Assembly: GCA_965248435.1 (NCBI GenBank)
Contig: OZ252100.1
Location: 1,760,001-1,824,000, forward strand
Source: Candidatus Latescibacterota bacterium
GTDB lineage: Bacteria; Latescibacterota; UBA2968; GCA-2709665
Direction of reading: 5' to 3'
DNA: 64,000 nucleotides
The translations under genes and the position numbers were made by a program. Positions 29,459 through 61,114 of the stretch are shown here, piece after piece (the stretch's first letter is position 1; every line of letters starts with the position of its first letter). The notes beneath the pieces are model-generated. The model was not told the origin of the DNA. It did no database searches and saw only the letters and a list, made by a program, of their open reading frames with translations.

Positions 29459-29459
29459 G

Positions 29460-30856: not shown

Positions 30857-30937
30857 ACAATGCCTCCGTCGACAAACAAATGGCCCTCCTTCTGCCAGAT
30901 AAAGAAAGGCCGCACGACAAACTGCCGGTCCAGTCCT

Positions 30938-31471: not shown

Positions 31472-31488
31472 CACCAATTCGCGAACAG

Positions 31489-32361: not shown

Positions 32362-32403
32362 TTGTCGATGTTGTGGGAGTATAGGCAGTATTGCCGACTT
32401 GCG

Positions 32404-35949: not shown

Positions 35950-36608
35950 GGCGCCTGTAACTCCTCTATCTTTCGAATCAGGTCTGGAGGGGTGAGTTGA
36001 TTCTGCAGGTAAGACGCTTCATATCCATCATCCAGCAGGTTCAGATGATGCAGGACATTGTCTGGATCGGGTGAGTCCGGCGTGGCCACGAACCGGCCCA
36101 GGAAGAAGAGGGCCTCAGCCACCGTCAAGTGGACATCCCGAAAATCGATATTGTCGTGAGAGGAGAAATAGACGGGATCCAGTGAAAGCGCCTGGTTGCC
36201 CGATATCCGGGCATCCTCATAATTGCCAAGAGCCAGCTCGAGACCGGACAGACCGACATACGCATCCGCGTTTCGCGGGTCTGCCCTCGTCGCCGTTAAG
36301 AAATTTTCCCTTGCGCTCTGCAGCAGTTTGTTCCTGAGTTGGCTGTCCACCTCCTGCCCGGCCTTGAGAAAGTTCAGCCACCCCAGGCCGTTGAAGGCCT
36401 CCGAAAAACTCGGGTCAAGGCTCAAGGCATTGTTGAACAGCTCCTCGGCCTTGTCAAGCTCGGTGTCTTTGTAAGACTCCCATCCCTCGAAGGTCAGCGT
36501 CTCTGCAGAACCGAATGTGCCGCCCTTTCCCGTGCCTCCCCCGCACGCGGTCAGAAACGCAGCGAAGGACGCGAGCAGAATGACAAGAATTCTATTTGAC
36601 TTGATCAT
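35946..36608 (-). CDS. TPR lipoprotein
   Basis: Lipobox LTAC after ATG 36608; TPR helices such as 'EAFNGLGW' and 'DAYVGLS'. Confidence 0.75.
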   Translation of the reverse strand: MIKSNRILVILLASFAAFLTACGGGTGKGGTFGSAETLTFEGWESYKDTELDKAEELFNNALSLDPSFSEAFNGLGWLNFLKAGQEVDSQLRNKLLQSARENFLTATRADPRNADAYVGLSGLELALGNYEDARISGNQALSLDPVYFSSHDNIDFRDVHLTVAEALFFLGRFVATPDSPDPDNVLHHLNLLDDGYEASYLQNQLTPPDLIRKIEELQAP

Positions 36609-36625
36609 AGGGCAACTCTTTTGGG

Positions 36626-40791: not shown

Positions 40792-40828
40792 AAAAAGGGC
40801 GGGTTGTGGTCCCTCCACAACCCGCCCT
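40792..40828 (-). terminator. Intrinsic terminator after the 1803-aa gene
   Basis: AGGGCGGGTTGTGG-loop-CCACAACCCGCCCT followed by TTTT (perfect 14-bp stem). Confidence 0.85.
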
Positions 40829-40867: not shown

Positions 40868-41830
40868 CTACTTGAGCAGCATCAGTTTCCGAACGGCCTT
40901 GAAGCCCTCGGTCTGCAGCCGGTAGAAGTAGACCCCACTGGCCACCTGCCGGCCAAAGGCATCCTGTCCACTCCAGCGCATCCGATAGCGACCCGCCGCC
41001 TGCGCCTCGCTCACCAGCGTGTTCACGAGCTGTCCCATCACGTTGTAGATCTCCAACCGCACCTCGGACCCCTCAGCCAGATCGTAGCTGATCGTCGTTT
41101 CGGGGTTGAACGGGTTGGGATAGTTCTGGGAGAGCGCGAACTCAGCAGGCACCAGCCGCACTTCCAGGGCCTCGTTCATGTGTATTGGGTTCGTCAGGTG
41201 GTCCGAATCGAACAGCACACCTTCGAAGATCTCGAACCGTGCGTCCTCGAACTCACCCGTCTTCGGACGGAAGGTCAGCACCGCGAGCGATCCCTCGCCC
41301 GAGGCTGCCTGCCCTTCACCGATCGCGCTGGCCAGCGTGATCTGGTCCGGCCCTTCCTGATGGACCAGGAAGAGCGGAGCCGTGGCTCCAGAGCTCGTCA
41401 ACATGTCTCCCTCCGGGCTCTTCGCCTCCACGAACTCATACCGGTCGGCGTCGTAGCGCACCGTCAGCCCCCAGCCCTGCACGGCCTCGGCCTGAGACAG
41501 GTCTGCACTGAGGGTAATCACCTTGCCGATCCGCGCCTTGCCGTCCACGTTCAGGGAAAGCTCGGCATCCCGGTTCACCCCGGGAGCGCTGGCAGCCTTG
41601 ACCAGCCGCCTGGAGGCGGGTGCATCTATGGCCACCCGGCCGAAGTCCTGGGTGAAGATCAGGAAGTCTGCGAAGTTCACCTGGTCGTCTCCGTTCAGGT
41701 CTGCCCTGATGTCGAAGACCGGGTCGCCGGCGTTCGTGCCGAAGCACTTCGCGACGATCAGGAAGTCGTTGAAGTCGACCTTGGAGTCCACATCGGGCAG
41801 GATCAGCCCGCGGATCTCACTGCCCTTCGC
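40868..41830. repeat. Near-identical 3' module shared with 48489-49451
   Basis: Direct repeat at offset 7621. By hand about 22 mismatches over the first ~840 bp. Confidence 0.93.
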
Positions 41831-44800
41831 GTCGTGATACACGATCGGATCGTCGGAGATCACGACGGTAACTTCACCCTCAAACTTGGGCTTGTGACCG
41901 GCATGCTCCACGTCGATCAGCATCGCGTCGCTCAGGGTCAGTCGCGCCTCTGTGGAACGGCTGAGCGTACGGAACCTGACCGTGGCCAGCGTCCCATCGC
42001 CCGATGCGCCCACAGGCGTCCGGCCGATGATCGAGTTCACTAACCCGATCTCGCCCTTGAGGATCCTTCCTGACATATCGGTCAGGTAGTTCTCCAGCAG
42101 GGATCCGTTCGACGTCAGGCTCTCGAACGCCAGCTTCGACGGATCATACTGGAGGTGCACCTCGTAGGTACGCACCGCCTTCGCACCGGTCAGCTCGACG
42201 GTCACGTCGAACGCCTCTCCGGCCTTCACTTCGCCTTCGGGCAGATTCGCCAGGGTCACCATCGCCTCGGCATTGTCGCCTTCCGGCAGGGCCTGCTTGA
42301 AGACCGGGAAGACCGGCTTGATCTTGTTCGTACCGGCGAGGATCAACTGAGACGTCCGGTTCGCGGTCGCGAAGTCTTTGTCCGTCGCGTTCACGATGTT
42401 GTCCCGGTTGATGTCCGCAAAGGTGTTGAAGTTGGCCTCTCCGGGCTGTGTGAAGAGCGCGGCATTGATCGCATTGATGTCCGGATCGCCGATCTGGTTG
42501 TCCGGTTTGCTCGTGCCCGTGCTGTCGGAGAAACCGGCTGCATCCCCGGCCACCAGGGCGGTCCGCTGGACGCCTTCCCCGTCTCTCGTCGGCAGTAATG
42601 CGCTCAGATCGAGACCGGGTTCGACGTTCAGTGTATCGTGTCCGACCAGGTGCCTCGGCACGAACGCCGTGAGAATAAAGCGTCCGGAAGGCACGTTGGT
42701 CAGCGTGAACTTGCCGTCGAAGTCGGTGGTCTGCACCTGCACACCGAACTGATCGGGATTGATGTCCTGCAGCTCGAACAGCGCGTCCGAAATCGCAGAG
42801 AAGCTGCCCACTTCACGCAGTACGAAGGTCACCGAATCGGCCGAGTTCGACCTCCCCTGAAGGGGCACGGTGCCCGAAACCTGCGAGCGAGCGTTGATCG
42901 TTACAGATGTGGGCTGCGGCACGAAGGCACTCACGTCGACGAACAGCGAGTCCAGCATCTTCGTAATCCGCGTACCGCTGTTGTCCAGGCTGATCGTGGT
43001 ACTCACCGTCGAGGCGGTCAGCGATTTCGCCTTCAGGTTCGCGAAGGCGATCGGGAGCTGGCCGTCAAGGCCGCTGAGCGGACTCGTCGCAGCCGGATCC
43101 GAGTAAAGGAAGTCCAGACGCAGGCTGTTCCCAAACGTCAGGGCCACCTGGCTGATGTTACCCGCGAATGCCGCTGGAATCCCCTCGCCCCGGGTGAAGG
43201 GCTGGATCCCGGCTGTGGAAGGATCCACGTCCACGGCTTCCCACTTGTCCGCATCCACCGTCATGAAGATATCCACGACGTGGATGTCCTTGCCGGACGG
43301 GCTGGCCTCTGCGACGATCGGGAACTGGATCACTTCGTCCGTTACCGCGACCATTCGCGTCGGAACAATAAATCGAGAGGTCGTGGGCGGATTCGTCGGA
43401 ACGACGCCCGTAAACGTGATCCGTCCTGGAGCCCGGACCAGGGGCGAACGGTTCCCGAAGTTGACCGTTCCGGAAACACCGCCTGCGACTGCGTCGGCCA
43501 CGGTCCCATCTCGACCGTCGTCCATCGCCACGTAGACGAAATAGGTCTGGCCAACGCCGCCTTTGGTCTGGAGTTCTAAGAATCCGGTGGAGGCCGCGGC
43601 GTCCGCCGTTATACCGGTGATATTTTGAAATAGGTTCAATCGCATACGGTTTCCGATGATCACGAACGACGTATCCACGCCTTCGTTCAGCTCGATCTCT
43701 TCGTTCAGCGACCCGTCGCCCGAGTTCCCGACCCAGAGCCTGTCAAGGGTGCCGTCGAAGGCAGCACCGTCGTCCGAGAAGTCAGTGACCGACCCCCAGG
43801 TCGTCACCTCACCCCAGTCGACGGAGGTCAACAGGATACGGACGTTGTTAGATGCCGTCCTGCTGTTGGGCGAGATACGGCCGCTCGTTCCGGTCGGTAC
43901 CGCCGTCAGTCCGCTCGCATCCTGGTTGTCCACGTCGAACGCCTCCCAGGAGATCATCACGGGCTCGTCCACCGTCACGGTGAGGTCCCGCGAAGGTTCG
44001 ATCACCCGGACGTAGGGCGGATGCAGGAACTCGACGGCCATCTCTACCGATCCCGCGGAGCCCAATGCAGGGTTTTCCAGGGTCAGAGAGACCAGCCGAT
44101 TCTGAGAGGTCGTCCTCATCAGTGCATAGAGGAAGTAGTCCACTCCGGTCCTTGGAATCGTCCCCTCTGGGGAGACATAGGTCCAGAGATCCCACTGGAG
44201 TTGGTTTGCGAATTGCCCGTCCGGGTCCTCAGAGACCGACCCGATCAAGTGGACATCGCTGTTCCCTTCAGCGATCACGGCCAGAAGGTCAGACCCGTCC
44301 GAGTTGCCACTCGTGAACTCCACACTTCCGCGTACGTCGTTGAAGTCCGACCGCGTGGCGTAGTAGATTTCGATCGTGGCATCGTTGTCTATATCGATGT
44401 CACCGCCCAGACCCTGCTCGCCCCACGAGACGGAGACAAACCGCTGAGCAGGACCCGGGTTCAGGTCCTTTCCGTCGGTATCGGCGATCATCTGAGATAC
44501 ATCGATACCCGTGACCACGTCCAGGTCGCCGTCAACTGCAGGGCTGGCATCGAAGTCGTTCAGCGCCCAGAGATCCGGGGTGAGATTCGGTGAATGCTTG
44601 ACGGTCAACTGTGCGGCCACCGGAGTCCCGATGAACGGGTCGTTGAAGACCTGCGATACGGTACGGCCGACACCGTCCGTCGCCGCAAAGTAGACAAAGT
44701 AGGTCGCCTCCGGCACGAAGGAGGAGACCAGATTTGCCGCGTCTCTTACGACCGGATCGAACTCGAACTTCCGGTGAGCGATCGTCAGGGTGTCCGTTCC

Positions 44801-46279
44801 AGAGAGCTTGATCGAACCCGACAGCGAGTCGATCCCGCCTCCAACCAGGTTGCCCACACCCAGGCCGCTCGTTGTGGACAGGAAGATATTCATCGAGAAG
44901 TTGCCCGGGTCGTCGGCGTCCTGCGGCAGGAAGAGCAGGTCCGTCGTGCTTGTCGCGTCGGGGATGAAACCGCTGTTGAAGGAGGGCAGCGGCGTCGCAG
45001 TCCCGTCGGTCTGCTGGGAGAAGAAATCTCCGGAGTCGACGGTGATGTTCGCGTTGTCCTTCAAGTTCCCCGCAGTGGAGGCCAGGGCGATCACATCACT
45101 CGGAACCTGGACCACACCCGTATTGTCGAAATCGTCGCCGCCGTCATTATCGTAGTCCCAGCCGGCTACGACGAACTCCGGTGGATGCAAGACCAGAAGC
45201 GGGCCGCTCCGCGCGAGAAAGACGCCACCAGAAAAATCTCCAAGTACAGTTGGGTCGAACCCGTGCTTTGTGCTGCCCGAATTATTGTTCTGCGGGAATC
45301 TGTCCGGCGCTGGATCGGCCAGCGCGTAGATGTAGTAGACCGTGTTGTTCGCCGTCCCCGCAAGGGAGATCACCCCCGCGACGCTGTCAGCAGCGTCGGA
45401 TGAAAATTCATCCACGAAGTCCTCGCGAATGTAAGTCGAGGGAATGAACGTCGGAACCTGTCGCGTCCCGAGCAGGTCTGTACTGATGTTGCCCGCAGAC
45501 ACGTCCTTTAGCTGACTGAAGAAAGACACAGGTCCCAGTGAGAGCGGACGCTGGATCAGCGTAGAATCTGTCGACAGGTAGAAGGTGTAGAGGACATCCG
45601 AGTTCGGGTTAGTCGGCTCGGTCTCCTGGGCCGTGCCTATGCTCAATCCCGAAAGAGACCTGTGGCTCAGGTCGAGCAGGGCACTGGGGAAGGCCATCTT
45701 GTAGAAGCGTCCCCCGGCAACCGTGGTATCGCCCTGAACGGAGTCCGGCGCCGAGAAACTAAAGGCCCGGATCGGGAAGTTCTGGTGCTTGGACACGGTA
45801 ATCGAACCGTCTGTCTGGTTCGCATCCGCAGACCAGTCCAGGGTATATGACGTGTCCTGCGCCGTACCGTCCGAAATGCCAGCGAAGTTGGTAGCGGTCG
45901 TCAGATCGAACTCGATGATCATCGTCTGACCGGTCAACCCCGTTCCGGACAACCCGAAAGCCATCTGTTGGCTGCCGGGCACTGTTTTGGTGCTAAACCA
46001 GGAGACAGTAGCTGTTTGGGAGGTGGCGGTAACCGAGCCAGTGACCACGCTGAACTCTCCTGGCACCGTAATCGTGAGTGCTTTCCCACTCACAGACGGC
46101 GCTCCCGTTAGCGTGATCTCCATACGCTGATGGTAGGCCTCACCCGCCAACGACGCGATGCCGTTCGGCACCTGGTCCGGGAACAAAGAAACTTGCTGCG
46201 CCCAGCCCATCTGGGGCGCCAGCAAGATTGCGGGAAGGACGATAATGACCGCAATAAAACGCAAGAGCCTGGGGTTCAT
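40868..46279 (-). CDS. Giant secreted cohesin/dockerin surface protein A (1803 aa) with FlgD-Ig/T9SS-A-like CTD
   Basis: Signal peptide; dockerin-like EF loops 'ADINRDNIVNATD' and 'ADLNGDDQVNFADF'; cohesin-like 'GEAFDVTV...YDPSKL' and 'GKVITL...YDADRYEF'; 'QNYPNPFNP...RKLMLLK'. Confidence 0.85.
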   Translation of the reverse strand: MNPRLLRFIAVIIVLPAILLAPQMGWAQQVSLFPDQVPNGIASLAGEAYHQRMEITLTGAPSVSGKALTITVPGEFSVVTGSVTATSQTATVSWFSTKTVPGSQQMAFGLSGTGLTGQTMIIEFDLTTATNFAGISDGTAQDTSYTLDWSADANQTDGSITVSKHQNFPIRAFSFSAPDSVQGDTTVAGGRFYKMAFPSALLDLSHRSLSGLSIGTAQETEPTNPNSDVLYTFYLSTDSTLIQRPLSLGPVSFFSQLKDVSAGNISTDLLGTRQVPTFIPSTYIREDFVDEFSSDAADSVAGVISLAGTANNTVYYIYALADPAPDRFPQNNNSGSTKHGFDPTVLGDFSGGVFLARSGPLLVLHPPEFVVAGWDYDNDGGDDFDNTGVVQVPSDVIALASTAGNLKDNANITVDSGDFFSQQTDGTATPLPSFNSGFIPDATSTTDLLFLPQDADDPGNFSMNIFLSTTSGLGVGNLVGGGIDSLSGSIKLSGTDTLTIAHRKFEFDPVVRDAANLVSSFVPEATYFVYFAATDGVGRTVSQVFNDPFIGTPVAAQLTVKHSPNLTPDLWALNDFDASPAVDGDLDVVTGIDVSQMIADTDGKDLNPGPAQRFVSVSWGEQGLGGDIDIDNDATIEIYYATRSDFNDVRGSVEFTSGNSDGSDLLAVIAEGNSDVHLIGSVSEDPDGQFANQLQWDLWTYVSPEGTIPRTGVDYFLYALMRTTSQNRLVSLTLENPALGSAGSVEMAVEFLHPPYVRVIEPSRDLTVTVDEPVMISWEAFDVDNQDASGLTAVPTGTSGRISPNSRTASNNVRILLTSVDWGEVTTWGSVTDFSDDGAAFDGTLDRLWVGNSGDGSLNEEIELNEGVDTSFVIIGNRMRLNLFQNITGITADAAASTGFLELQTKGGVGQTYFVYVAMDDGRDGTVADAVAGGVSGTVNFGNRSPLVRAPGRITFTGVVPTNPPTTSRFIVPTRMVAVTDEVIQFPIVAEASPSGKDIHVVDIFMTVDADKWEAVDVDPSTAGIQPFTRGEGIPAAFAGNISQVALTFGNSLRLDFLYSDPAATSPLSGLDGQLPIAFANLKAKSLTASTVSTTISLDNSGTRITKMLDSLFVDVSAFVPQPTSVTINARSQVSGTVPLQGRSNSADSVTFVLREVGSFSAISDALFELQDINPDQFGVQVQTTDFDGKFTLTNVPSGRFILTAFVPRHLVGHDTLNVEPGLDLSALLPTRDGEGVQRTALVAGDAAGFSDSTGTSKPDNQIGDPDINAINAALFTQPGEANFNTFADINRDNIVNATDKDFATANRTSQLILAGTNKIKPVFPVFKQALPEGDNAEAMVTLANLPEGEVKAGEAFDVTVELTGAKAVRTYEVHLQYDPSKLAFESLTSNGSLLENYLTDMSGRILKGEIGLVNSIIGRTPVGASGDGTLATVRFRTLSRSTEARLTLSDAMLIDVEHAGHKPKFEGEVTVVISDDPIVYHDAKGSEIRGLILPDVDSKVDFNDFLIVAKCFGTNAGDPVFDIRADLNGDDQVNFADFLIFTQDFGRVAIDAPASRRLVKAASAPGVNRDAELSLNVDGKARIGKVITLSADLSQAEAVQGWGLTVRYDADRYEFVEAKSPEGDMLTSSGATAPLFLVHQEGPDQITLASAIGEGQAASGEGSLAVLTFRPKTGEFEDARFEIFEGVLFDSDHLTNPIHMNEALEVRLVPAEFALSQNYPNPFNPETTISYDLAEGSEVRLEIYNVMGQLVNTLVSEAQAAGRYRMRWSGQDAFGRQVASGVYFYRLQTEGFKAVRKLMLLK

Positions 46280-46649
46280 GTTACGAACTCCTTCCTTGGA
46301 CTATTAAACGACCTGATGAAACGGTTGAAAACGAACTGCTCCGGGAGCCTCCGGCCTGCTCCGACGTCCTTATCGTCTCAGCCGGTCGACTCGGTTCGGG
46401 TGAAAGACCAAATGAAAACGATTGTCCGATCCAAAAAATTCAGTCGGTTGGGTCTGTGTGAGCATAGATATGCCCGGCATACTTTGTCTGAGTAGCGCTG
46501 TGCGCAGACCAACCCTAAGAGTTCTTTGGCACCACAAAGGTTTGCACGTGGCCTCGTAGCCAGGGAAAGGCGCGTTAGATCAATCCGGATCTACCGATGT
46601 TCTATAGACCTGAATTTCATTACAACATTCCGTACCGATGTCCTGGCGG

Positions 46650-46678
46650 GTTGTATCCTTTACTCCTCCATGTGTCAA
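46650..46678 (-). promoter_or_regulatory. Possible sigma-70 promoter for the 1803-aa gene
   Basis: Minus strand TTGACA-17 bp-TACAAC; the -10 element is imperfect. Confidence 0.45.
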
Positions 46679-46970
46679 GTTGCCTGAGTCAGCATCCGTT
46701 CATTTCTGTAACATTCGAGGCGAAACAAAAGGGCATACTTCTCCCACTAACGAAACACCCATCTTGTGTACGTCCTGCCGTGCGTATGTCGCCAGGCGCG
46801 CAGGCGCACTCTACCCGCAGATGCAGTTCAACACCTGGCGTCCCGTTTCTACCTGTGGGCGGACGGATCCCTGCACGGCACCCGCCCGCGACGGCAACGG
46901 GTTGTCCTCACAAACTCCCTTGAAGGAGGCCTTCAGAAAGGTCGCTTGCAGCCTGCCTCGGCAGGCAAAG

Positions 46971-47914
46971 TGTCAAAGATCGATTCAGGTTTCTTGACGC
47001 ATTAGGCTACTTATACTTGATATCGATGTTGAGATCCGCAGACTGTCCGATGCTTCTGCATCTCGCTCTTCTTCTTAACCTCGAAACATGTTTTGCTCCG
47101 TGAACGTATCTGTCCCTGCCCATACCGACCTTGTGACAGGTATGGTGATGCCCCCAGTTGAGCGCCGTAGGCTCAACACCCCAAAAAGGGGCTTTGGTAG
47201 CCTGCATCCCGTACTAACCAGGCAGGCGGAGTGTCAAAGATCCTTCGATCTGATCAGCGGTTGTCTCAGATGTAGATGTACTGGTCCGAGTCCCCGCGAT
47301 TTGATGCGGTTAGCCCTATGTTCCGCTGGAACGAATGCGGCTAAGGGACATACTGCCATCCTACCTCCCGCAGCTCTACTCGGCGGGACACGTTTCAAAG
47401 ATCAAGGGTTGACGAGCAAACCTCGAAGGGAGCTGAGGTCTAGAGCATTCAGGCACAGATAACGCTCGTCCGACTGACACATCCTTGCCTATGCAAGCCG
47501 TGGCTGCATCATCCAGGCCCAGTACAATTCGTCTGTGCAGTTCCGAGCACGAGCTGCAGATTTCTCATTTGCCGGATCCTACGCTCAGTGCTCTTCGAGT
47601 TCCTCCCCCCGGTCCGTGATCGTGTTGTGTAACAGGCGTGACGTCATATATAGATCCATACATCCTTAGCGAGCGCCACGGGTTCCAAGCCCATAGAAGG
47701 GAGCTTCGGCTGCCTGCATCCTGTACCTTCAGGCGGGCGGAGTGTCAAAGATCTTTCGAACTGATCATCGGCTGTCTGAGTTGTAGATGTACTGGTCCGA
47801 GTCCGCCCCGGTCTGATGCGGTTTGCCCTATGTTCCGCTGGAGCGAATGCGGCTCGGGGACAGATTGCCACTCCACCTCCCGTAGCTCAACGGGCGGGAA
47901 GCGTTTCAAAGATC
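46971..47914 (-). promoter_or_regulatory. Five boxA-like GATCTTTGA(C/A)A motifs, each next to a GC hairpin
   Basis: Plus-strand T(G/T)TCAAAGATC at 46971, 47232, 47393, 47743 and 47904. Confidence 0.45.
47160..47666. repeat. 511-bp-period non-coding tandem repeat, copy 1
   Basis: Aligns end to end with 47671-48179. Confidence 0.93.
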
Positions 47915-48179
47915 ATTCAAGGCTCGACAAGCAAACCTGGAAGGGAACCGAGTCTAAGCATTCAGGCGCAGATAACGCTCGTCCGACTGACACATTCTTG
48001 CCTATGCAAGCCGTGGCTGCATCATCCAGGCCCAGTACAATTCGTCTGTGCAGTGCCGAGCACGAGCTGCAGATTTCTCATTTGCCGAATCCTACGCTCG
48101 GTGCTCTTCGAGTTCCTCCCCCCGGTCCGTGATCGTGTTGTGTAACTGGCGTGACGTCATATATAGATCCATACATCCT
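47671..48179. repeat. 511-bp-period non-coding tandem repeat, copy 2
   Basis: Right 223 bp differ from copy 1 at 6 positions; the left part is more diverged and has indels. Confidence 0.93.
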
Positions 48180-48488
48180 GCTGGATGTATCAGGGCTATG
48201 GGATTTGATTTTCGATCGGGCAAATGACCCTCAGCGACTTGCCGGGCTTCCAGACTCGACTCGCCTCGCCGGTTGGCCTTAAGCCAGTCGCCCAGTTCGA
48301 GCGCTATTCGCCGCTCCGATCTGGCTTTGTCATTGGGAGCATCGTTCGTTATCTCTCACGATGGGATGGACCAAACCTTCGGTCCTACGCCGCCAAACGC
48401 ATACAGAGTTGCACAAAACCTCTCTCGACGGTCCAGCCGAACTCTGGTCGCGGTAACCCATTATTCGAATAGCGCCTGGCGAATCACT

Positions 48489-49451
48489 CTACTTAAGCAG
48501 CATCAGTTTCCGAACGGCCTTGAAGCCCTCGGTCTGCAGCCGGTAGAAGTAGACCCCACTGGCCACCTGCCGGCCAAAGGCATCCTGTCCACTCCAGCGC
48601 ATCCGATAGCGACCCGCCGCCTGCGCTTCGCTCACCAGCGTGTTCACGAGCTGTCCCATCACATTGTAGATCTCCAACCTCACCTCGGACCCCTCAGCCA
48701 GATCGTAGCTGATCGTCGTTTCGGGGTTGAACGGGTTGGGATAGTTCTGGGAGAGCGCGAACTCAGCAGGCACCAGCCGCACTTCCAGGGCCTCGTTCAT
48801 GTGTATTGGGTTCGTCAGGTGGTCCGAATCGAACAGCACGCCCTCGAAGATCTCGAACCGTGCGTCCTCGAACTCACTCGTCTTCGGACGGAAGGTCAGC
48901 ACCGCGAGCGATCCGTCGCCCGAGGCTGCCTGCCCCTCACCGATCGCGCTGGCCAGCGTGATCTGGTCCGGCCCTTCCTGATGGACCAGGAAGAGCGGAG
49001 CCGTGGCTCCTGCACTCGTCAACAGGTCGCCCTCCGGGCTCTTCGCCTCCACGAACTCATACCGGTCGGCGTCGTAGCGCACCGTCAGCCCCCAGCCCTG
49101 CACGGCCTCGGCCTGAGACAGGTCTGCACTGAGGGTAATCGCCTTGCCGATCCGTGCCTTGCCGTCCACGTTCAGGGAAAGCTCGGCGTCCCGGTTCACC
49201 CCAGGAACGCTGGCAGCCTTCACCAGCCGCCTGGGGGCGGGTGCATCTATGGCCACCCGGCCGAAGTCCTGGGTGAAAATCAGGAAGTCTGCGAAGTTCA
49301 CCTGGTCGTCTCCGTTCAGGTCTGCCCTGACATCGAACGCGGAGTCACCCAGTCGCGAGCCGAAGCTCTTGGCGACGATCAGGAAGTCGTTGAAGTCGAC
49401 CTTGGAGTCCACACCGGGCAGGATCAGCCCGCGGATCTCACCGCCGTTCGC
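48489..49451. repeat. Near-identical 3' module shared with 40868-41830
   Basis: See partner repeat. Confidence 0.93.
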
Positions 49452-52400
49452 GTCGTGATAAACGATCGGGTCATTGGAGATCGCGATCATGGCCTCGCCT
49501 TCCAGTTTCGGCTTGGCGCCCACGTGGTCCACATCGATCAGCAGCCCGTCGCTCAACGCCAATCGGGCCTCCGTGGCGCGGGCCAGCGTTCTGAAGCGGA
49601 TCGTGGCAAGCGTCCCTTCACCCGATGCGCCTACGGGTGTCCGGCCGATGATCGAATTCACGAATCCGACTTCACCTTTCAGGATCTTTCCCGACATGTT
49701 TGTGAGATAGTTCTCCAGCAAGGTCCCACTGGACATCAGGTACTCCATGGCCAGTTTCGTCTGGTCGTACTCCAGGTGCACATCATAGGTGCGTACCGCC
49801 TGTGCGCCACTCACCTTCACCGTCACGTCGAACGTCTCTCCGGCCTTAACTTCACCTTGAGGCAGGTCGGTCAGGGTATAGGTCGCCTGGGAATTATCCC
49901 GCTCTTGGGGTATCGCCCCCTTGAAGCTGGGGAATACCGGCCGGATGGTGCCGGGCGCGCCCGTATTGCTCGTCGTATTCGTTGTGGCGAAGTCCTTGTC
50001 TGTTGCGTTCACGATGGTATCCCGGTTGATGTCCGCAAAGGTGTTGTAGAGGGAATCCGATGGCGTCGTATACAACGCGTTGTTGATCGCGTTGATGTCA
50101 GGCGCCCCGATGGCGTTGTCCGGAATGTTTCTGCCACTCGCGTCGTTAAATCCGGCTGCATCGCCGGCATACAACTCGGTCAGCGTATTGCCGTCCCCGT
50201 CTTCAAATGACGAGACGGGAATAGGAACGCCGCCGACGGAACCCGGTTCCACCTCGATTACTTTCTTGGCGTTTAGGTGTCTGGGTATCGAGGCCGTGAG
50301 GACCCAGCGGCCAGAGGGTACATCGAATAGCTCATACTGGTCAATCCCTTCCATACCTATTTTCGGCGTATCCTGCACCCCGAACAGAGACGCATCGATA
50401 TCATTCAGCTCGAAGAGGGAGTCTGACACCGTCGCAAAGCCGCCCACTTCCCGCAGAAAGAAGGTCATCGTATCGGAAGAGGTCGTCGCTCTCCCCTGCA
50501 GGGGCACGGTGGGTAGCAGGGTTACCCGTTCAGTGATGTCGACGGAGGTCGCCGGCACCGGCGCCACCCCGATCTCAACGTTATTGCCGTCTCGCATCAA
50601 GGTCTCACGGCTGATTGGAGGGGGGTCGAAGTCCAAGGAGATGGTGGTGGTGATCATCGTTGGCCCCCCAAGCGGTTTAGGCTTGAGGTGTGCGGTGGCC
50701 AAAACCTTTTCGCCATCAAAGAAGGTCAGACCACTGAGTCCGGTGTACTCCAGGTCGAGACGAAGCTTACCCCCTAGCAGCATCGCATTTTGATTAAATT
50801 CTATTGGAATAATTTCCGACTCATCGCTCAGCGTGAAGGGCTGAACACCCGGTTTACCCAGATCCTGGTCGATCGCCTGAAACTTGTCGTCATCGACGGT
50901 GATGAAAATATTCACCTTCTTCACCGAACCCGTTGGATTCGTCCCATCGTCGATCACGATCGGGTACTTGATGATCTGGCCCACTCCCGTGGTGATCTTG
51001 TCCGGTACGACGAATCTTGCGTTTGATGCAGGATTTACCGGAACAGCCCCCGTGAACCTAATCCTTCCGGGGGCCCTGACCACTGGCGAACGGTTGCCGA
51101 AGTTTGTTTGCAGTGGTGATCCATCCACCGCATCAGCCACGCTTCCGTCCCGTCCGTCGTCGATCGCCAGGTAAACGTAGTATTGAGTCGGGCCAGTTTG
51201 CAGTTCTAAAGACCCGGTGGACGATGCATTCGAATAGGCATTGAAGAGGTTGTTCCGCATCCTCTCACCCACGATCACGAAAGAAGAATCCACGCCTTCA
51301 TTCAACTCGATCTCCTCCACAAGCGATCCGTCACCCGAATTGCCCACCCACAGACGATCATCATTTGCGGCGAAGTTGGTAATGGAACCCCACGTCGTGA
51401 CCTCTCCAAAGTCTGCGGACATCAACAGGATTCGAATGTTGGGGGAACTGGAGCGGTTGTTTGGGGCTGAACGCCCACCGCCGGACGGGTCCACGGCGAG
51501 TCCAGCCCCCTCGGCGTTGTCCACGTCCGAGGCCTCCCAGGAAACGAGAACCGGCTCGTCTATGGTGCCCAACATGATATCAGCAGCTGGTTCAACAGGC
51601 CTGATGGTGGGCGGGTGCAGAAAGTTGAGAGCCATAGGGGTCCCGGGTCCGCTCGGACTCGGATTGTCCTCCGTCAACGAGATCAAACGGTTGACACCGT
51701 CCTTTAGCAGAGCGTAGAGGTAGTATCGTACACCGGTGGCAGGTACTGTTCCCTGTGCATTGGAGTAACTCCACAGATCCCACAGAAACTGATTGTCGAA
51801 CTGCCCGTCCAGGTCTTCCGTGATTTGTCCGATCAAATGAGTATCGTTGTTTCCCTGGTCTCTAGAGGCTTCAAGATCCGTCCCTTGCGAATTCCCGCTC
51901 GTGTTGGCCGCACTCCCACGCACGTCGTTGAAGTCGGATCGCGTACTGTAATAGAGCTCGATCGTGGCGTCGCCGTCCAGATCGATATCTCCGTCTCTGC
52001 CTTCCTGTCCCCAGGAGATCGAGACGAATCGGGTTTCCGGACCCCGACTCAGATTCATCCCGTCCACATCAGTGACCATCTGGGAGACGTCTATGCCTGT
52101 GACTACATCCAGATCCCCATCCCCGCTCCCGTCGAAATCGTTGAGCGAAAACACGTCTATCGTAAGGTTGGGAGAATTCTTCACTCTCAATCTGGCGGGT
52201 GTCGGAGAAGTGATGAACGGATCGTTCTGCACCTGGGTGACGATGCGATGATCATCATCCCCGTCCGTTGCCACGAAGTAGACGTAATAGTCTCCCTCGG
52301 CAATCGTGTCCTGCGAGGCGAGTCTCAGGTTGAATATCCTGCTGTTGATCGTGAGTGAATCTGTGCCACCGACCTGGATCGCATTCGCCAGAGAATCAAT

Positions 52401-53771
52401 GCCTGTAACATCAAGGTCGCCCACGCCAAGACCGCTCAGGGTCGAAAGGAAAACACTCATGGCGAACCCGGCGGTTGAGTCCGCGTCCTGGGCCAGAAAG
52501 AGGAGGTCTACAGAGGTTTCAGGGTCAGGGGCGAGACCGCCGTTCACGCTGCTGAATGCATCCCCTTTCGCAAAGAACGATCCCGAATCCAGCGTGATGT
52601 CCCGGTTGTCCTTCCTGTTCGCGTCCACCGCCGCCATACCGATGATGTCGCTAGGTACCTGAATCACGCCTGTATTGTCATAGTCGTCGCCGCTGTCGTC
52701 GTCATAATCCCAGCCTACGACGACGAATTCGGGGTGGTGCGATACCTTGAGTGGACCGCTCCGTCCAAGGAACGTCCCACCGGAAAGCTTTCCGAACGTG
52801 AACGGGTCATAATTGTTCCGGTCTGGGGCTGGATCTGCAAGCACGTAGACGTAGACGAACGAACCGTCCTGAGTATTCGAAATGGAAATCACGCCATTCA
52901 AGCTGTCAGCCGCGGATGCATCGAACGTGGCCGAATAGTTTTCCCGAATGAACGTGCCCGGGATAAACCTCGGGATCTGTCGCGTACCCAGGAGAGGTCC
53001 ACTGCCGTCTGGTCTGAGTGAGAAATGCTGCTCTGGACTCTCCCCCAATGGCAGCGTGATATGTGTGGAGTCGTCCAGAACGAAAAAGCTGTAGAGTATA
53101 TCTGTGCTGGCCTCGGAAAAGCCTGCGGATGCAGACAGACCTGAAATCCCTGAATGGACCAGATCAGGCAGCGCGCCTGGGAATTCCAGTTTGAAAAAGC
53201 GCCCGGAGGAGTCGGTCGTCGCTCCGACCAAAGAATCGGGTGAATCGAACGAGATGAATCGGATAGGGGCGTTCTGGTGTCTGAAGACTTCAACGTTTGT
53301 ATTCGACTGTGTCGTCACAGACGCGAATTCCACGACATAAGCAGTGTCCTCTGCCTCCCCCTCCATCAACCCCGTAAAATTCGTCGGTGTGGTCACATCG
53401 AATTCAACGGTAATCGTCCTGCCGCTCAGACTGGTCCCGGTGATTCCGAATGCCAACTTGTCCGGGTTCGTTTGCGGCGTTCCGGCGAAAAAGGCGACGA
53501 CCCCTGAATTGTCGCTCGTAGCAGTAACTGAACTGGTCACAACAGTGAGTTCAGAGACCGCAGTGATCGTGAACGCTCGAAAATATTGAACAGCGGTGGG
53601 GCCCAACGTGATGTCGAGCCGCTGGTGATAGCGTTCTCCCAACGCAGAAGTGACTCCGTTGGGTACTGCGTTCGGCTTTAGATCGAACGTTTGAGCGGGG
53701 CTCGGGATGGGAATCGCCAGCGAGAACAAACCCGAGAGGATCGCTGTAGAAATCAGGCGATTCAATTTCAT
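48489..53771 (-). CDS. Giant secreted cohesin/dockerin surface protein B (1760 aa), paralog of 40868-46279
   Basis: Same architecture and many shared blocks (HPPEF/HHPEF, DGDLDVVTGIDVSQM, EEIELNEGVD); near-identical C-terminus. Confidence 0.85.
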   Translation of the reverse strand: MKLNRLISTAILSGLFSLAIPIPSPAQTFDLKPNAVPNGVTSALGERYHQRLDITLGPTAVQYFRAFTITAVSELTVVTSSVTATSDNSGVVAFFAGTPQTNPDKLAFGITGTSLSGRTITVEFDVTTPTNFTGLMEGEAEDTAYVVEFASVTTQSNTNVEVFRHQNAPIRFISFDSPDSLVGATTDSSGRFFKLEFPGALPDLVHSGISGLSASAGFSEASTDILYSFFVLDDSTHITLPLGESPEQHFSLRPDGSGPLLGTRQIPRFIPGTFIRENYSATFDASAADSLNGVISISNTQDGSFVYVYVLADPAPDRNNYDPFTFGKLSGGTFLGRSGPLKVSHHPEFVVVGWDYDDDSGDDYDNTGVIQVPSDIIGMAAVDANRKDNRDITLDSGSFFAKGDAFSSVNGGLAPDPETSVDLLFLAQDADSTAGFAMSVFLSTLSGLGVGDLDVTGIDSLANAIQVGGTDSLTINSRIFNLRLASQDTIAEGDYYVYFVATDGDDDHRIVTQVQNDPFITSPTPARLRVKNSPNLTIDVFSLNDFDGSGDGDLDVVTGIDVSQMVTDVDGMNLSRGPETRFVSISWGQEGRDGDIDLDGDATIELYYSTRSDFNDVRGSAANTSGNSQGTDLEASRDQGNNDTHLIGQITEDLDGQFDNQFLWDLWSYSNAQGTVPATGVRYYLYALLKDGVNRLISLTEDNPSPSGPGTPMALNFLHPPTIRPVEPAADIMLGTIDEPVLVSWEASDVDNAEGAGLAVDPSGGGRSAPNNRSSSPNIRILLMSADFGEVTTWGSITNFAANDDRLWVGNSGDGSLVEEIELNEGVDSSFVIVGERMRNNLFNAYSNASSTGSLELQTGPTQYYVYLAIDDGRDGSVADAVDGSPLQTNFGNRSPVVRAPGRIRFTGAVPVNPASNARFVVPDKITTGVGQIIKYPIVIDDGTNPTGSVKKVNIFITVDDDKFQAIDQDLGKPGVQPFTLSDESEIIPIEFNQNAMLLGGKLRLDLEYTGLSGLTFFDGEKVLATAHLKPKPLGGPTMITTTISLDFDPPPISRETLMRDGNNVEIGVAPVPATSVDITERVTLLPTVPLQGRATTSSDTMTFFLREVGGFATVSDSLFELNDIDASLFGVQDTPKIGMEGIDQYELFDVPSGRWVLTASIPRHLNAKKVIEVEPGSVGGVPIPVSSFEDGDGNTLTELYAGDAAGFNDASGRNIPDNAIGAPDINAINNALYTTPSDSLYNTFADINRDTIVNATDKDFATTNTTSNTGAPGTIRPVFPSFKGAIPQERDNSQATYTLTDLPQGEVKAGETFDVTVKVSGAQAVRTYDVHLEYDQTKLAMEYLMSSGTLLENYLTNMSGKILKGEVGFVNSIIGRTPVGASGEGTLATIRFRTLARATEARLALSDGLLIDVDHVGAKPKLEGEAMIAISNDPIVYHDANGGEIRGLILPGVDSKVDFNDFLIVAKSFGSRLGDSAFDVRADLNGDDQVNFADFLIFTQDFGRVAIDAPAPRRLVKAASVPGVNRDAELSLNVDGKARIGKAITLSADLSQAEAVQGWGLTVRYDADRYEFVEAKSPEGDLLTSAGATAPLFLVHQEGPDQITLASAIGEGQAASGDGSLAVLTFRPKTSEFEDARFEIFEGVLFDSDHLTNPIHMNEALEVRLVPAEFALSQNYPNPFNPETTISYDLAEGSEVRLEIYNVMGQLVNTLVSEAQAAGRYRMRWSGQDAFGRQVASGVYFYRLQTEGFKAVRKLMLLK

Positions 53772-54168
53772 GTCTGGTGCTCCTCACTCAGTTTGTGAAC
53801 TGAAAGACCTGACGGGCAGGGTCACCCGTACAGAGCTTTCAGCTTGACCGATGTTGCCAATCCTACTACATTCCATAGAGATAGGCAGGCACCGGCAGGG
53901 CCGGCACCTGATTGGTGAAAGACTCAGAAGATCGCGACTGCCTTCTCGGTCGTGGGTTCCTACCAGCCCACATCCGGTCTTGCGGGTTGCCTGCCAACCC
54001 GAAGAGGAATTTTCAGCCTAAGGGAGCCTTCTCCCTTTGCTGACAGATGGATCCGGGGCAGAACGGAAACAATCATCGCGTTCCCGCACCGCTGTGCGTA
54101 TACACAGGTCTCCTACCAGACCTGCTGGAGTCTTCATCTCAAGTCAATTGATCCGTTGGATCGCATAA

Positions 54169-54184
54169 AGCAAGCCCTGTACCA
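54169..54184 (-). promoter_or_regulatory. Sigma-54 promoter for the 1760-aa gene
   Basis: Minus strand TGGTAC-AGGGC-TTGCT (GG-N10-GC), about 400 bp upstream of the ATG; AT-rich IHF-like tract at 54216-54224. Confidence 0.65.
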
Positions 54185-54316: not shown

Positions 54317-56959
54317 ATGGCTCACCCGGCGCGCGCGATGCCAGTTAGAACCTCTACACCCGGGCGGATCGCTTTTCGGGCAACGCAACTTTGCGTCGCC
54401 CTCGTTCCCTTAACGATCCTCCCAGGCATCAACGAATTCACACTCCTTCCGAAGCTCCTGGTTCTACAGATCGCGCTCCTGGTTATCGCGATCGCGTGGG
54501 CATATCGCCCCGATTCCGTTCCATTCCGCGCCATTCCGGCACAACTGCCCATTTTCTTCCTCTTCCTCATGCTCTCCGCCTCTGCCTTCTGGGCCGCCAA
54601 CCACTTCAGATCGACCTTCGATCTGTCCAAGCACCTCAGCTTTCTGCTCTTCCTTCTGCTGCTCTTTCACAACCTGAGCTCAAACCGCATCATCGACATC
54701 CTGCGGGTCAGCACAATCTCAGGAGCCGTGGTCTCCATCCTTGGGATTGGAGAATACCTGGGGTTTCTTCCTGACTTGCTCCCTTCTACCGGTCGACCGA
54801 GCAGTACCTTCGGCTTCCGGAATTTGGCAGCGCAATACCTTGTGGCCAACTTGCCCCTGTCTCTGCTTTATTTTATCCGGGCCCATCGCGAGATCGACCG
54901 AGTGGTTGCAGGCGTATCCTCAGCCCTGATGTTCGTTTTTCTACTCTACACCCGCGCCAGGGGATCCTGGGTCGGTCTCTTCGCTGCAACCTTCCTGCAT
55001 TTGGCCTTATTGCTGATTTTCGCTCGCCATTTGCTGTTTGAATTCGGTAAGGTCCTTTTCAATCGACGAGTCCTGAAAGTGGCGGGGGTCGCACTCCTCT
55101 TGATCGGCCTACTGGCTCCCCTGCCCGAAGGGTTCCGTGAACGTCACCTGCAGCGTTTTGACGAAAAGAAGATAGACGTCGTGTCGACTGCCTCATCGAT
55201 CTTTAAAAGAGGAGGGGACCGGGGCCGGCTGCTCATGTGGCAGCGAACCCTCAGAATGGTCCGGGACGCCCCACTCCTCGGGGTGGGGCTGGGGAACTGG
55301 GCCTATGTTTTCCCCCTCTATACGAAGGGCGGCGGAGAAGGGATGGTTGGCGCGGGCCACAACCCCCTGCGCCCCCACAACGACCTCCTCTGGATCTGGT
55401 CCGAGGCCGGAACCCCCGCACTGCTGGCCTACCTTGCGCTCATTGGTACGGTTCTTCTCCTGGCGGTACGCATCTGGCGAAAGTCAACCGACCCACACGC
55501 GTGCATCTCCGCGCTCTGTTACAGCCTGACAGTCTGGTCCGTTGTCGGCGCCAGCTGTTTCGGCTTCCCTTGGGAACGAATTCCAGCATCGATGCTGTTC
55601 TGGCTGGCCACCGCATCGGTCGGGATCCTTGCCCGTGAGACAGGAGTCTTCCCCTCACCAGAGTATGCCCCCTCTCGAATCACACGCTGGACATGCCTTT
55701 TGATCCCAATCCTCCTGTTGGCAAGTATCTGGATCACACTCCGCCGCATTGGATTCGACTACTACCACGTAACGGCCACGATCGCCTTTGCCAAGAAAGA
55801 TCACTCGGCTAAAGTTCGAGAAGCCGCGCACGCAATTGCGTTCGGGCCTTTCGACCACCAAATCTTCATCATCCACGGAGACGGAAATCTCGCACTCGGA
55901 AATTTCGATGCTGCTGAGAGGAGCTTCAAGCGATGTCTTGATTATCACCCTAATTTTGGGAACGCCTATAACAACCTCGGATTGCTATGGGACAGGAAAG
56001 AAGAGAACGAAAAGGCCATCTTCTACTTTCGCAAGGCGCTCGATCTCGTCCCAAACCATCATATCGCACGCTACAACCTCGGCACGGTGTTTCAGAAATT
56101 GGGCCAGTTCGACAGCGCCAAGGTGGCCTACAGAGAGTCTTTCCAGCCCCATCACACCGTTCCATACGTCAACCTCGGTGGCATCTATCGCAGCCTTGGA
56201 GACACAGACAGCGCCATCGTCGTTTACAGGGAGGCCCTTGCCGGATCCGTGCCTTCAAACGAAGCCTACTTCAACCTGGGTAACATCTATGCTGAACAAA
56301 GGCGCTACGAGGAGGCCGCGGAAGCCTACAGCAATTTCCTGTCTGTTTGGAAGGGAGATCCCGAATTCTTAGAAACGGCAAGGGAAGGCTTGAGCGAGGC
56401 CAACAGCGGGATGGGGGTCCAGGCCGAACAGCGAGGGGAGAACGATAGGGCCATCGAGTATCATCAGAACGCCATCCGCTATTGGCCCGAAAACGCGCAG
56501 AACTGGTTCAATCTGGGTAACACTTATCGGAAAGAGGAGGCGTGGGACAAAGCAGAAAAGGCCTATCATAGATCATTGGCGAGAGATTCGACTTATGTCG
56601 ATGCGTACAACAACCTGGGACTGACATACAGGGACCTTGGAGACAACGACAAGGCCATTCAGACCTTCAAGAAGGGTCTGCGACAAGGACCCGACCAGCC
56701 GGTACTGCATTACAATATCGGAAATGCCTACACCGATATAGGCGATACCCTTAGCGCATTGGAAGCATACGACGCATTTCGCAGGAACTGGAAAGGAGAT
56801 ACCGCGAGGCTGCACTACTACCTGGGCAATGCGTATCTGGAAATGGACAACACACTCGGGGCGTTGGAGGAATACAGGGCGTTCCTCAAGAACTGGCAGG
56901 GAAGTCGGGCTGAAGCCGAAGCTATAGAAGCACTGGTAAGGAAGCTCGAGAAACCATAA
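54317..56959 (+). CDS. O-antigen ligase-family/TPR fusion (paralog 3, longest TPR array)
   Basis: PSSTFGFRN, TRARGSW, FDEKK, DRGRL, GVGLGNW, RPHND; many TPRs. Confidence 0.85.
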   Translation: MAHPARAMPVRTSTPGRIAFRATQLCVALVPLTILPGINEFTLLPKLLVLQIALLVIAIAWAYRPDSVPFRAIPAQLPIFFLFLMLSASAFWAANHFRSTFDLSKHLSFLLFLLLLFHNLSSNRIIDILRVSTISGAVVSILGIGEYLGFLPDLLPSTGRPSSTFGFRNLAAQYLVANLPLSLLYFIRAHREIDRVVAGVSSALMFVFLLYTRARGSWVGLFAATFLHLALLLIFARHLLFEFGKVLFNRRVLKVAGVALLLIGLLAPLPEGFRERHLQRFDEKKIDVVSTASSIFKRGGDRGRLLMWQRTLRMVRDAPLLGVGLGNWAYVFPLYTKGGGEGMVGAGHNPLRPHNDLLWIWSEAGTPALLAYLALIGTVLLLAVRIWRKSTDPHACISALCYSLTVWSVVGASCFGFPWERIPASMLFWLATASVGILARETGVFPSPEYAPSRITRWTCLLIPILLLASIWITLRRIGFDYYHVTATIAFAKKDHSAKVREAAHAIAFGPFDHQIFIIHGDGNLALGNFDAAERSFKRCLDYHPNFGNAYNNLGLLWDRKEENEKAIFYFRKALDLVPNHHIARYNLGTVFQKLGQFDSAKVAYRESFQPHHTVPYVNLGGIYRSLGDTDSAIVVYREALAGSVPSNEAYFNLGNIYAEQRRYEEAAEAYSNFLSVWKGDPEFLETAREGLSEANSGMGVQAEQRGENDRAIEYHQNAIRYWPENAQNWFNLGNTYRKEEAWDKAEKAYHRSLARDSTYVDAYNNLGLTYRDLGDNDKAIQTFKKGLRQGPDQPVLHYNIGNAYTDIGDTLSALEAYDAFRRNWKGDTARLHYYLGNAYLEMDNTLGALEEYRAFLKNWQGSRAEAEAIEALVRKLEKP

Positions 56960-56975
56960 ACTGCATATTGCGACA

Positions 56976-61110: not shown

Positions 61111-61114
61111 CTGA

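What the first reader, a model, noticed from the sequence alone, without database searches (positions are those of the whole stretch)
47160..48179. 511-bp non-coding tandem duplication that looks like a repeated structured RNA
Seen: two head-to-tail units plus a degenerate third left end (~46910-46981). No conserved ORF survives because indels break the frames. The right 223 bp differ at 6 sites, while the left part diverges but keeps its hairpins (GCCTGC...GC(A/G)GGC and TCCCG(C/T)...GCGGGA). Other stems: TGCAG...CTGCA, GAGCACGAGC/GCTCnGTGCTC (overlapping, mutually exclusive), a TGACGTCA palindrome, and ATACATCC/GGATGTAT at the right boundary (48171-48190). Inference: a ~500-nt ncRNA or cis-element amplified in tandem between the surface-protein genes. 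Strand is unresolved: G-T pairs favour +, the boxA-like motifs favour -.
Basis: partly seen in the sequence, partly recalled or inferred. Interest (0 to 1): 0.7.

Follow-up and report, generated by a model that had tools for sequence, protein, structure and literature searches.

The report
Five-site boxA array between surface genes
A real 511-base duplication has raised to five the number of boxA-like signals (the "keep transcribing" motif of ribosomal-RNA operons, here each followed by a hairpin) in the 2-kb gap between two giant surface-protein genes, and these likely carry transcription through to the second gene, whose own predicted promoter has decayed.

Summary
The duplication is real: 47160-47666 and 47671-48179 are 87.7% identical, and seawater contigs from other studies bridge the junction. 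It is not supported as a ~500-nt structured ncRNA: whole units fold no better than shuffles, Rfam finds nothing, and no homolog was found in 60 relatives.

The conserved part is a ~40-nt minus-strand module: GATCTTTGA(C/A)AC, 3 nt, then a 6-bp stem. It occurs five times in 945 bp, twice per unit plus once outside. The 12-mer matches the class's rRNA boxA (GYTCTTTGAMAA) at 10 of 12 positions. This is the genome's only same-strand cluster, and no non-coding equivalent was found in 131 class genomes.

The array lies in a 2.2-kb untranslated spacer between two ~1800-aa cohesin/dockerin proteins. The sigma28-type promoter before the second gene is intact in 6 of 6 relatives but decayed here.

Best reading (0.5): NusB/S10 loading sites supporting read-through from the first gene's sigma54-type promoter. 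Binding and antitermination are untested, and one module is deleted in two populations. The scan noted non-rRNA boxA modules on other DNA before; this sequence is new.

The parts
47160..47666 (.). Duplicated unit 1 (holds modules A1 and B1)
   Evidence: blastn
47671..48179 (.). Duplicated unit 2 (holds modules A2 and B2)
   Evidence: blastn; junction bridged by contigs of X6 and X20
47444..47666 (.). 223-bp segment 97% identical to 47957-48179, likely homogenised by recent exchange between copies
46951..46981 (-). Module A0, outside the duplication: boxA-like 12-mer 46981-46970, 3-nt spacer, perfect 6-bp stem with 4-nt loop
47200..47242 (-). Module A1: boxA-like 12-mer 47242-47231, 3-nt spacer, perfect 6-bp stem with 16-nt loop
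   Evidence: (z -2.3)
47366..47403 (-). Module B1: boxA-like 12-mer 47403-47392, 3-nt spacer, perfect 6-bp stem; pair 47371/47383 changed on both sides in population X6
47712..47753 (-). Module A2: boxA-like 12-mer 47753-47742, stem 5 of 6 pairs; removed by a 62-bp deletion (47706-47767, 7-nt microhomology) in populations X6 and X8
47878..47914 (-). Module B2: boxA-like 12-mer 47914-47903, stem 5 of 6 pairs; with its 5' bases it equals the 13-nt B. subtilis rrn boxA consensus
46491..46517 (-). Decayed sigma28-type promoter of gene 2 (the -10 box keeps 2 of 7 consensus bases)
   Evidence: alignment with 6 orthologous leaders
54170..54184 (-). Sigma54-type -24/-12 promoter upstream of gene 1, the predicted source of read-through transcription
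   Evidence: present in 5 of 5 gene-1-type upstream regions
48489..53771 (-). Gene 1: 1760-aa secreted protein with cohesin, dockerin and FlgD-Ig/C-terminal sorting-like domains
40868..46279 (-). Gene 2: 1803-aa paralog with the same domains
40796..40828 (-). Intrinsic-terminator-like hairpin (14 bp plus T run) after gene 2, predicted end of the transcription unit
48171..48190 (.). 8-bp inverted repeat straddling the right duplication boundary

Best explanation
The 511-bp duplication added two copies to an array of five same-strand boxA-like/hairpin modules in a 2.2-kb untranslated spacer, and these likely load NusB-S10 and the Nus antitermination complex so that RNA polymerase coming from gene 1 would cross the spacer and transcribe gene 2, whose own predicted sigma28 promoter has decayed. 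Shown: the duplication, the five modules, their strand, spacing and stems, the match to rRNA boxA, the presence of rho, nusA, nusB, nusG, S10 and SuhB-family genes, the decayed promoter motif, and no terminator-like site on the minus strand of the spacer. Inferred: that the spacer is transcribed on the minus strand from the sigma54-type promoter (about 13 kb unit), that NusB-S10 binds, that Rho would otherwise terminate here, and that the 3' hairpin helps by keeping boxA unpaired or filling the NusB-S10 dsRNA site. The copies look redundant, so the duplication itself may be near neutral.
For: (1) rRNA boxA in the class is GYTCTTTGAMAA in 56 of 58 sites from 30 rrn loci. The modules differ at 2 of 12 positions, and the only position that differs among the five (C/A) is one of the two that vary in that consensus. 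(2) The B. subtilis consensus AUGAUCUUUGAAA binds NusB (PMC13753749, passages) and equals B2 at 13 of 13. The bases named as key NusB contacts (G2, C5, U6; U8 pocket) are kept (PMC3177189, passages and sections 10 and 17). (3) Of 47 GNTCTTTGAMA sites on contig C1, these five form the only same-strand cluster within 1 kb. (4) Upstream flanks of classes A0, A and B do not align (8 of 8 cross-class pairs z<2), yet each class keeps a perfect 6-bp stem at +4, seen at 0.46% of 20,000 random sites and at 3 of 47 boxA-like sites, all three in the array. (5) Both 12-mers are untouched while 56 of 284 columns differ between units (P=0.004, post hoc). (6) X6 carries a double change at pair 47371/47383. 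(7) The sigma28-type promoter is intact in 6 of 6 aligned gene-2 leaders and decayed in G000. (8) The machinery is encoded. (9) Precedent: boxA raises transcription of long untranslated CRISPR arrays (PMC7862264; 10.64898/2026.08.17.745180; passages).
Against: No binding, strand or read-through data. Positions 2 (A) and 12 (C) occur in 0 of 58 class rrn sites. One boxA suffices in rrn (PMC13753749), so five are unexplained, and A2 is deleted in 2 of 3 populations where unit 2 was resolved. The minus strand has C>G in only 8 of 28 windows, so it is not an obvious Rho substrate. Predicted boxA accessibility is mixed: 0.44, 0.46, 0.70, 0.73, 0.75 unpaired vs about 0.42 for context. Only 1 of 5 module regions folds better than shuffles on minus, and A2 folds worse (z +2.0). 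The three strongest of 53 windows (z<=-3) are on plus. Population variants miss the boxA sites (0 of 21 listed) but this is not significant (P=0.24), and 7 rows were not shown. MAFFT aligns the B 3' arm with the A loop, so the A/B stem differences may be a rebuilt stem, not covariation. The link between array gain and promoter loss is one lineage. A TTGACA-N17-TACAAC site at 46678 and 12 short RpoD-like paralogs could give gene 2 another promoter. boxA can also promote termination (PMC5725501).
Confidence: 0.5

Rival explanations
1. The modules are real Nus-binding sites but do not serve gene 2. They would act on the spacer RNA itself, as folding/processing aids or as a multi-site decoy that titrates NusB-S10, or would repress gene 2 by favouring Rho termination.
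For: Five sites exceed what antitermination needs. Nus factors mainly aid folding at rRNA and repress suhB via boxA (PMC5725501, passages). RNA-library contigs cover parts of the spacer in two studies.
Against: The nearest boxA is about 700 nt from the gene-2 start, whereas the putative regulatory boxA sites in PMC5725501 were taken within 50 nt of a start. No stable overall fold. RNA contig depth is only 2-4, unstranded and possibly DNA.
Confidence: 0.14
2. Neutral tandem duplication of fast-evolving spacer DNA. A chance boxA-like word with a hairpin was multiplied by older and newer duplications and kept similar by exchange between copies, with no current function.
For: The array is confined to one species. 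A2 is weakened and deleted in two populations. There are signs of exchange between copies. Leaders of related genes also carry tandem duplications (G004, G008). A and B share about 40 nt of likely ancestry.
Against: The 12-mer, 3-nt spacing and stem are kept in three module classes whose upstream flanks no longer align. All five lie on the sense strand and match a functional consensus.
Confidence: 0.2
3. A discrete ~500-nt structured ncRNA gene present in two copies.
For: Local hairpins are kept between copies. RNAalifold shows 4 of 71 pairs (minus) and 1 of 79 (plus) changed on both sides, from two sequences only. RNA-library contigs overlap the units.
Against: Folding z about 0 or positive; no Rfam hit; no homologs. 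No promoter motif was found at a unit start. Contigs cross unit borders. A 14-bp helix partner (48214-48227) lies outside the unit.
Confidence: 0.06
4. The 12-mer is a DNA signal: a -35 box (it contains TTGACA/TTGAAA) for one of the genome's many sigma70-family paralogs, or a transcription-factor site, making the array a set of tandem promoters that replaced the lost sigma28 promoter.
For: The genome has 12 short RpoD-like paralogs besides FliA. A two-mismatch sigma28-like site precedes A2. Gene 2 needs a new promoter.
Against: Housekeeping promoters here are TTGACA-N16-18-TAnnnT (23 of 49 tRNA/tmRNA upstream regions), and none of the five has such a -10. Conservation extends 5 bases upstream of the hexamer exactly as in boxA. 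The sigma28-like site is chance-level and degenerate in unit 1.
Confidence: 0.07
5. Read on plus, the modules are remnants of IS200/IS605 right ends (hairpin followed by TCAA) or REP/MITE elements.
For: Each module reads hairpin, 6 nt, TCAA on plus, similar in layout to the class's TnpB element ends. The genome has 5 Y1 transposase matches.
Against: Many of the class ends read have GAAG/GAAT just before the hairpin and a variable flank after the end; the modules lack the first and share an invariant flank. A profile of 30 such ends finds nothing at E<=10. No TnpB domain in G000. The repeats beside its Y1 genes do not match (best E=0.37). No dispersed copies.
Confidence: 0.03

Closest known systems
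rrn leader/spacer boxA and the Nus antitermination complex (NusB-S10, NusA, NusG, SuhB)
   Same: Core sequence, including the C/A variable position; untranslated context; all factors encoded.
   Different: Five copies rather than one per leader; no rRNA; the conserved hairpin is 3' of boxA; positions 2 and 12 deviate from the class consensus.
boxA in CRISPR-array leaders and synthetic tandem-boxA leaders
   Same: Non-rRNA boxA proposed to protect a long untranslated transcript (PMC7862264, 10.64898/2026.07.09.737519, 10.64898/2026.08.17.745180; passages).
   Different: Here the sites are inside an intergenic spacer of a protein-coding unit, spread over 945 bp and amplified by natural duplication.
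Lambda nut site (boxA-spacer-boxB)
   Same: Order boxA then stem-loop; NusB-NusE has a dsRNA site contiguous with the boxA site (PMC3177189 section 17).
   Different: 3-nt spacer; variable 4-16 nt loops without a shared loop motif; no phage context or N-like gene seen in the window.
suhB-type boxA (Nus-mediated repression)
   Same: boxA upstream of a protein gene (PMC5725501, passages).
   Different: The sites are 700-1630 nt from the start codon, not within 50 nt.
Large ornate ncRNAs (ROOL, GOLLD, OLE; names recalled)
   Same: Similar length of the unit only.
   Different: No Rfam match, no folding signal, no homolog family.

Membership tests
boxA / Nus loading site | boxA consensus with NusB-contact bases G2, C5, U6, U8 | tested here: met
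   All five keep G-x-TCTTTGA-M-A; 10 of 12 vs the class consensus; B2 13 of 13 vs B. subtilis
boxA / Nus loading site | Identity to the organism's own rrn boxA | tested here: inconclusive
   Own rrn sites are GCTCTTTGACAA and GTTCTTTGACAA; modules differ at positions 2 and 12, variants seen in 0 of 58 class sites
boxA / Nus loading site | On the transcribed strand of an untranslated region | tested here: inconclusive
   Same strand as both flanking genes and no conserved ORF; unstranded RNA-library contigs only
boxA / Nus loading site | boxA single-stranded and accessible | tested here: inconclusive
   Mean unpaired probability 0.44-0.75 in 200-nt context
boxA / Nus loading site | NusB, S10, NusA, NusG, SuhB-family and Rho encoded | tested here: met
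   the two inositol-monophosphatase-family hits were not shown to be SuhB orthologs
boxA / Nus loading site | Binds NusB-S10 and suppresses termination | not testable with these tools
   Needs binding and reporter assays
Lambda-type nut site | Stem-loop 3' of boxA | tested here: met
   6-bp stem at +4 in all five, perfect in three
Lambda-type nut site | Conserved boxB loop for an N-like protein (GNRA-like loop, recalled) | tested here: not met
   Loops of 4, 16, 11, 15 and 10 nt with no shared motif
Large structured ncRNA (ROOL/GOLLD/OLE class) | Rfam match, or homolog family with covariation and stable fold | tested here: not met
c-di-GMP-I riboswitch | Match to RF01051 | tested here: not met
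   3 weak hits elsewhere in the genome, none at this locus
IS200/IS605 right end | Guide tetranucleotide 5' of the hairpin and variable flank after TCAA/TCAC | tested here: not met
   Compared with 30 class TnpB loci; no TnpB in G000
CsrB-type sponge RNA | CsrA encoded and GGA motifs kept in both copies | tested here: not met
   No CsrA match; AGGA/ANGGA excess in unit 1 only (11 vs 4.6 expected; unit 2: 6 vs 4.7)

The most novel reading that the evidence does not exclude
A lineage rewired two giant surface-protein genes from separate sigma54 and sigma28 control into one 13-kb unit by building a copy-number-variable array of Nus loading sites in the spacer. The number of boxA-hairpin modules (4 or 5 among ocean populations) would tune read-through into gene 2, or sponge NusB-S10 away from the single rRNA operon and so couple surface-layer synthesis to ribosome synthesis.
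Probability: 0.15. Interest if true: 0.8.

Novelty: new variant of a known kind. Interest (0 to 1): 0.5.

Why it matters
Verified natural uses of boxA outside rRNA operons are few: lambdoid nut sites, suhB-type autoregulation and CRISPR leaders. A natural five-site array inside a protein-coding unit, gained where an internal promoter decayed, would show Nus antitermination being recruited to fuse genes into an operon. It also gives a natural test of whether boxA copy number and a 3' hairpin at fixed spacing matter. The modules are short and portable, so the test is cheap in a laboratory strain. The limit is that it is known from one uncultured species.

Tried and rejected
Rfam at gathering (whole window) and at E<=10 (spacer): 0 hits. 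A resemblance to c-di-GMP-I seen by eye failed with RF01051.

DNA search of 60 relatives: 0 hits. Phage and plasmid blastn: none. The module pattern gave 2 hits in genome contigs, 2 in metagenome contigs and 0 in viral contigs. All 4 are single sites without flank homology and were taken as chance; L047 lies just upstream of a gene and was not followed further.

Class-wide pattern with 1 mismatch: 26 of 132 genomes match, G000 included. I inspected 18 of the non-G000 loci; they lie in or overlap ORF-length frames and none is an array. Class-wide double-boxA pattern: 11 of 132 genomes. I inspected 10 loci: coding repeats or chance pairs, one (L119) partly intergenic.

Decayed gene: no support. 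IS605 end, REP/RAYT and CsrB readings were rejected. No covariance model was built, because MAFFT did not align the stems.

G005's upstream region was left out of the 6-of-6 promoter count because it did not align with the gene-2 leaders; it has a sigma28-type site at -88. Whether the promoter is also decayed in other populations could not be read, as the variant table was cut. No silent-stretch control for the RNA runs was laid. One search gave nothing useful. The protein atlas gave no result. Stringer et al. 2020 (eLife e58182) was not held and is known only through citing passages.

Full report
Observation. The duplication is as described: 47160-47666 and 47671-48179 are 87.7% identical over 513 columns. 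The right 223 bp differ at 6 sites and the left part at 56 of 284 columns. It has no other copy in the 5.67-Mb genome. It lies in a 2209-bp spacer between two minus-strand paralogs of 1760 and 1803 aa with cohesin, dockerin and FlgD-Ig domains. It is not an assembly error. Of 23 runs listed as holding the stretch I laid six. A DNA contig (X6) and an RNA-library contig (X20) bridge the junction, and X5, X6 and X8 each show both units.

Not a 500-nt structured RNA. Whole units fold like shuffles on both strands (z +0.07, +0.11, +0.27, +1.18). Rfam gives nothing at either threshold. No homolog was found in 60 relatives, phages or plasmids. Two-sequence consensus folding shows 4 of 71 double changes on minus and 1 of 79 on plus, too little to carry weight. 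The near-identical 223 bp look homogenised, not specially constrained: population divergence there is about 2%, like the rest of the spacer. One substitution (47387) is shared by both copies in X6 and X8 and by neither in X5. No reading frame is conserved.

The real repeat. On the minus strand, the sense of both genes, GATCTTTGA(C/A)AC occurs at 47914, 47753, 47403, 47242 and 46981. Each is followed by 3 nt and a 6-bp GC-rich stem with a 4-16 nt loop. The duplication accounts for two of the five; the other three are classes A0, A and B. Their upstream 80 nt do not align across classes (8 of 8 pairs z<2). Yet each class has a perfect stem at +4, a feature of 0.46% of random sites and of 3 of the 47 GNTCTTTGAMA sites on C1, all three here. 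This is the only same-strand cluster of that motif within 1 kb in the genome. A and B probably share about 40 nt of ancestry, and MAFFT puts the B 3' arm against the A loop, so I do not count the A/B stem differences as proven covariation. One double change is seen in population X6 (47371/47383).

Match to boxA. The organism's rRNA leader and spacer carry GCTCTTTGACAA and GTTCTTTGACAA. Across 30 rrn loci of the class, 56 of 58 sites are GYTCTTTGAMAA. The modules match at 10 of 12 and vary only at the C/A position. They have A at position 2 and C at position 12, seen in none of the 58. A at position 2 is the B. subtilis form, AUGAUCUUUGAAA, which binds NusB (PMC13753749, passages) and equals B2 at 13 of 13. 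The NusB-NusE structure recognises 8 nt, names G2, C5, U6 and a U8 pocket as key, and has an adjacent dsRNA site proposed for a neighbouring stem-loop (PMC3177189, passages and sections 10 and 17). NusB, Rho, NusG, NusA, S10 and two SuhB-family genes are present, with one NusG and no paralog found.

Context. Homologs of gene 2 were found in 13 of 131 class genomes. A sigma54-type site precedes gene 1 in 5 of 5 gene-1-type regions. A sigma28-type site lies about 350-370 nt before gene 2 in 6 of 6 aligned leaders (G008, G037, G038, G041, G042, G051). In G000 the aligned -10 box keeps 2 of 7 bases and about 130 nt of leader is missing. FliA and sigma54 are encoded. No minus-strand terminator-like site was found in the spacer, and a strong one follows gene 2. 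None of the relatives' spacers read has an array; G037 has one perfect boxA in its leader. Class-wide pattern searches found no non-coding cluster in the loci inspected.

Mechanism. The simplest account is a 13-kb transcript from 54184 to about 40800 with 2.2 kb untranslated in the middle. The boxA modules would load the Nus complex and protect elongation into gene 2. boxA does this for long CRISPR arrays (PMC7862264, 10.64898/2026.07.09.737519, 10.64898/2026.08.17.745180; passages). Sequence, strand, context and machinery are shown; transcription, binding and antitermination are inferred. RNA-library contigs from two studies cover parts of the spacer and cross unit borders, but at depth 2-4, unstranded and without a silent control.

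Against. The minus strand is C>G in only 8 of 28 windows. boxA accessibility is mixed. The three best-folding of 53 windows are on plus. Module A2 has a broken pair, folds worse than shuffles and is deleted via a 7-nt microhomology in X6 and X8. Population variants avoid the 12-mers only at P=0.24. A perfect -35 with a poor -10 at 46678 and 12 short RpoD-like paralogs could supply another promoter. boxA can also promote termination (PMC5725501, passages).

Rivals tested. IS200/IS605 right end: the layout is similar on plus, but the guide is absent, the flank is invariant, a profile of 30 class ends finds nothing, and G000 has no TnpB. PMC3201880 was seen only as a search listing. c-di-GMP-I and CsrB fail. 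Tandem housekeeping promoters fail for lack of a -10.

Novelty. Five paper searches on boxA listed no natural multi-boxA array in a protein-coding operon. I saw listings and abstract openings for most hits; subscription journals and bioRxiv supplements are outside this library. Earlier notes of this scan report boxA-like modules in other genomes, often before small genes (unchecked), and none matches this sequence. Verdict: a real duplication, probably near neutral in itself, that amplifies a likely functional boxA-hairpin array; a new variant of a known kind, interest 0.5.

Noticed in passing
G000 genome, 12 loci such as C1:4401023, 1306359, 4460247: Twelve full-length, about 290-aa RpoD-like sigma factor paralogs besides FliA, an unusually large set.
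   Followed up: no
window 53860-54000 (minus); L032 and L033 upstream regions: The leader of gene 1 holds a conserved structured-looking motif that is tandemly duplicated (about 105-110 nt) in G004 and G008 and single in G000; a candidate cis-regulatory RNA with real homologs.
   Followed up: no
L006, L007, L034-L036 upstream of gene-2 orthologs: A conserved ~350-nt leader after the sigma28-type promoter, with shared blocks and a hairpin near the ribosome site, across genera; G037 has a perfect boxA in it.
   Followed up: partly
G000:C1:5164618 (minus): A lone perfect class boxA followed by rrn-like bases in an intergenic region between divergent genes, with no rRNA or tRNA after it.
   Followed up: partly
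G000:C1:1449595, 2072907, 3849904, 4651336, 4844371, 5171451: Six copies of a repeated element carry a perfect class boxA 12-mer about 116 nt before a ~283-aa ORF.
   Followed up: no
window 48301-48310 and 48466-48475; 48214-48227 with 48078-48091 or 47565-47578: Long-range inverted repeats outside the duplication. The first has the same bases as this genome's 16S processing stem but in reverse order; the second could pair with either unit.
   Followed up: no
window 40868-41900 and 48489-49500: The C-terminal ~250 residues of the two paralogs are nearly identical while the N-termini are about 50% identical, suggesting gene conversion. The gene-2 N-terminus is far more variable between populations (about 12-16%) than the spacer.
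   Followed up: no
window 27077-36734 and 54317-63253: Six O-antigen-ligase-plus-TPR genes flank the surface-protein pair, next to a glycosyltransferase cluster, suggesting protein glycosylation of these surface proteins (inference).
   Followed up: no
L140-L144: Five Y1 transposase genes, four of them with REP-like flanking repeats unrelated to the array.
   Followed up: partly
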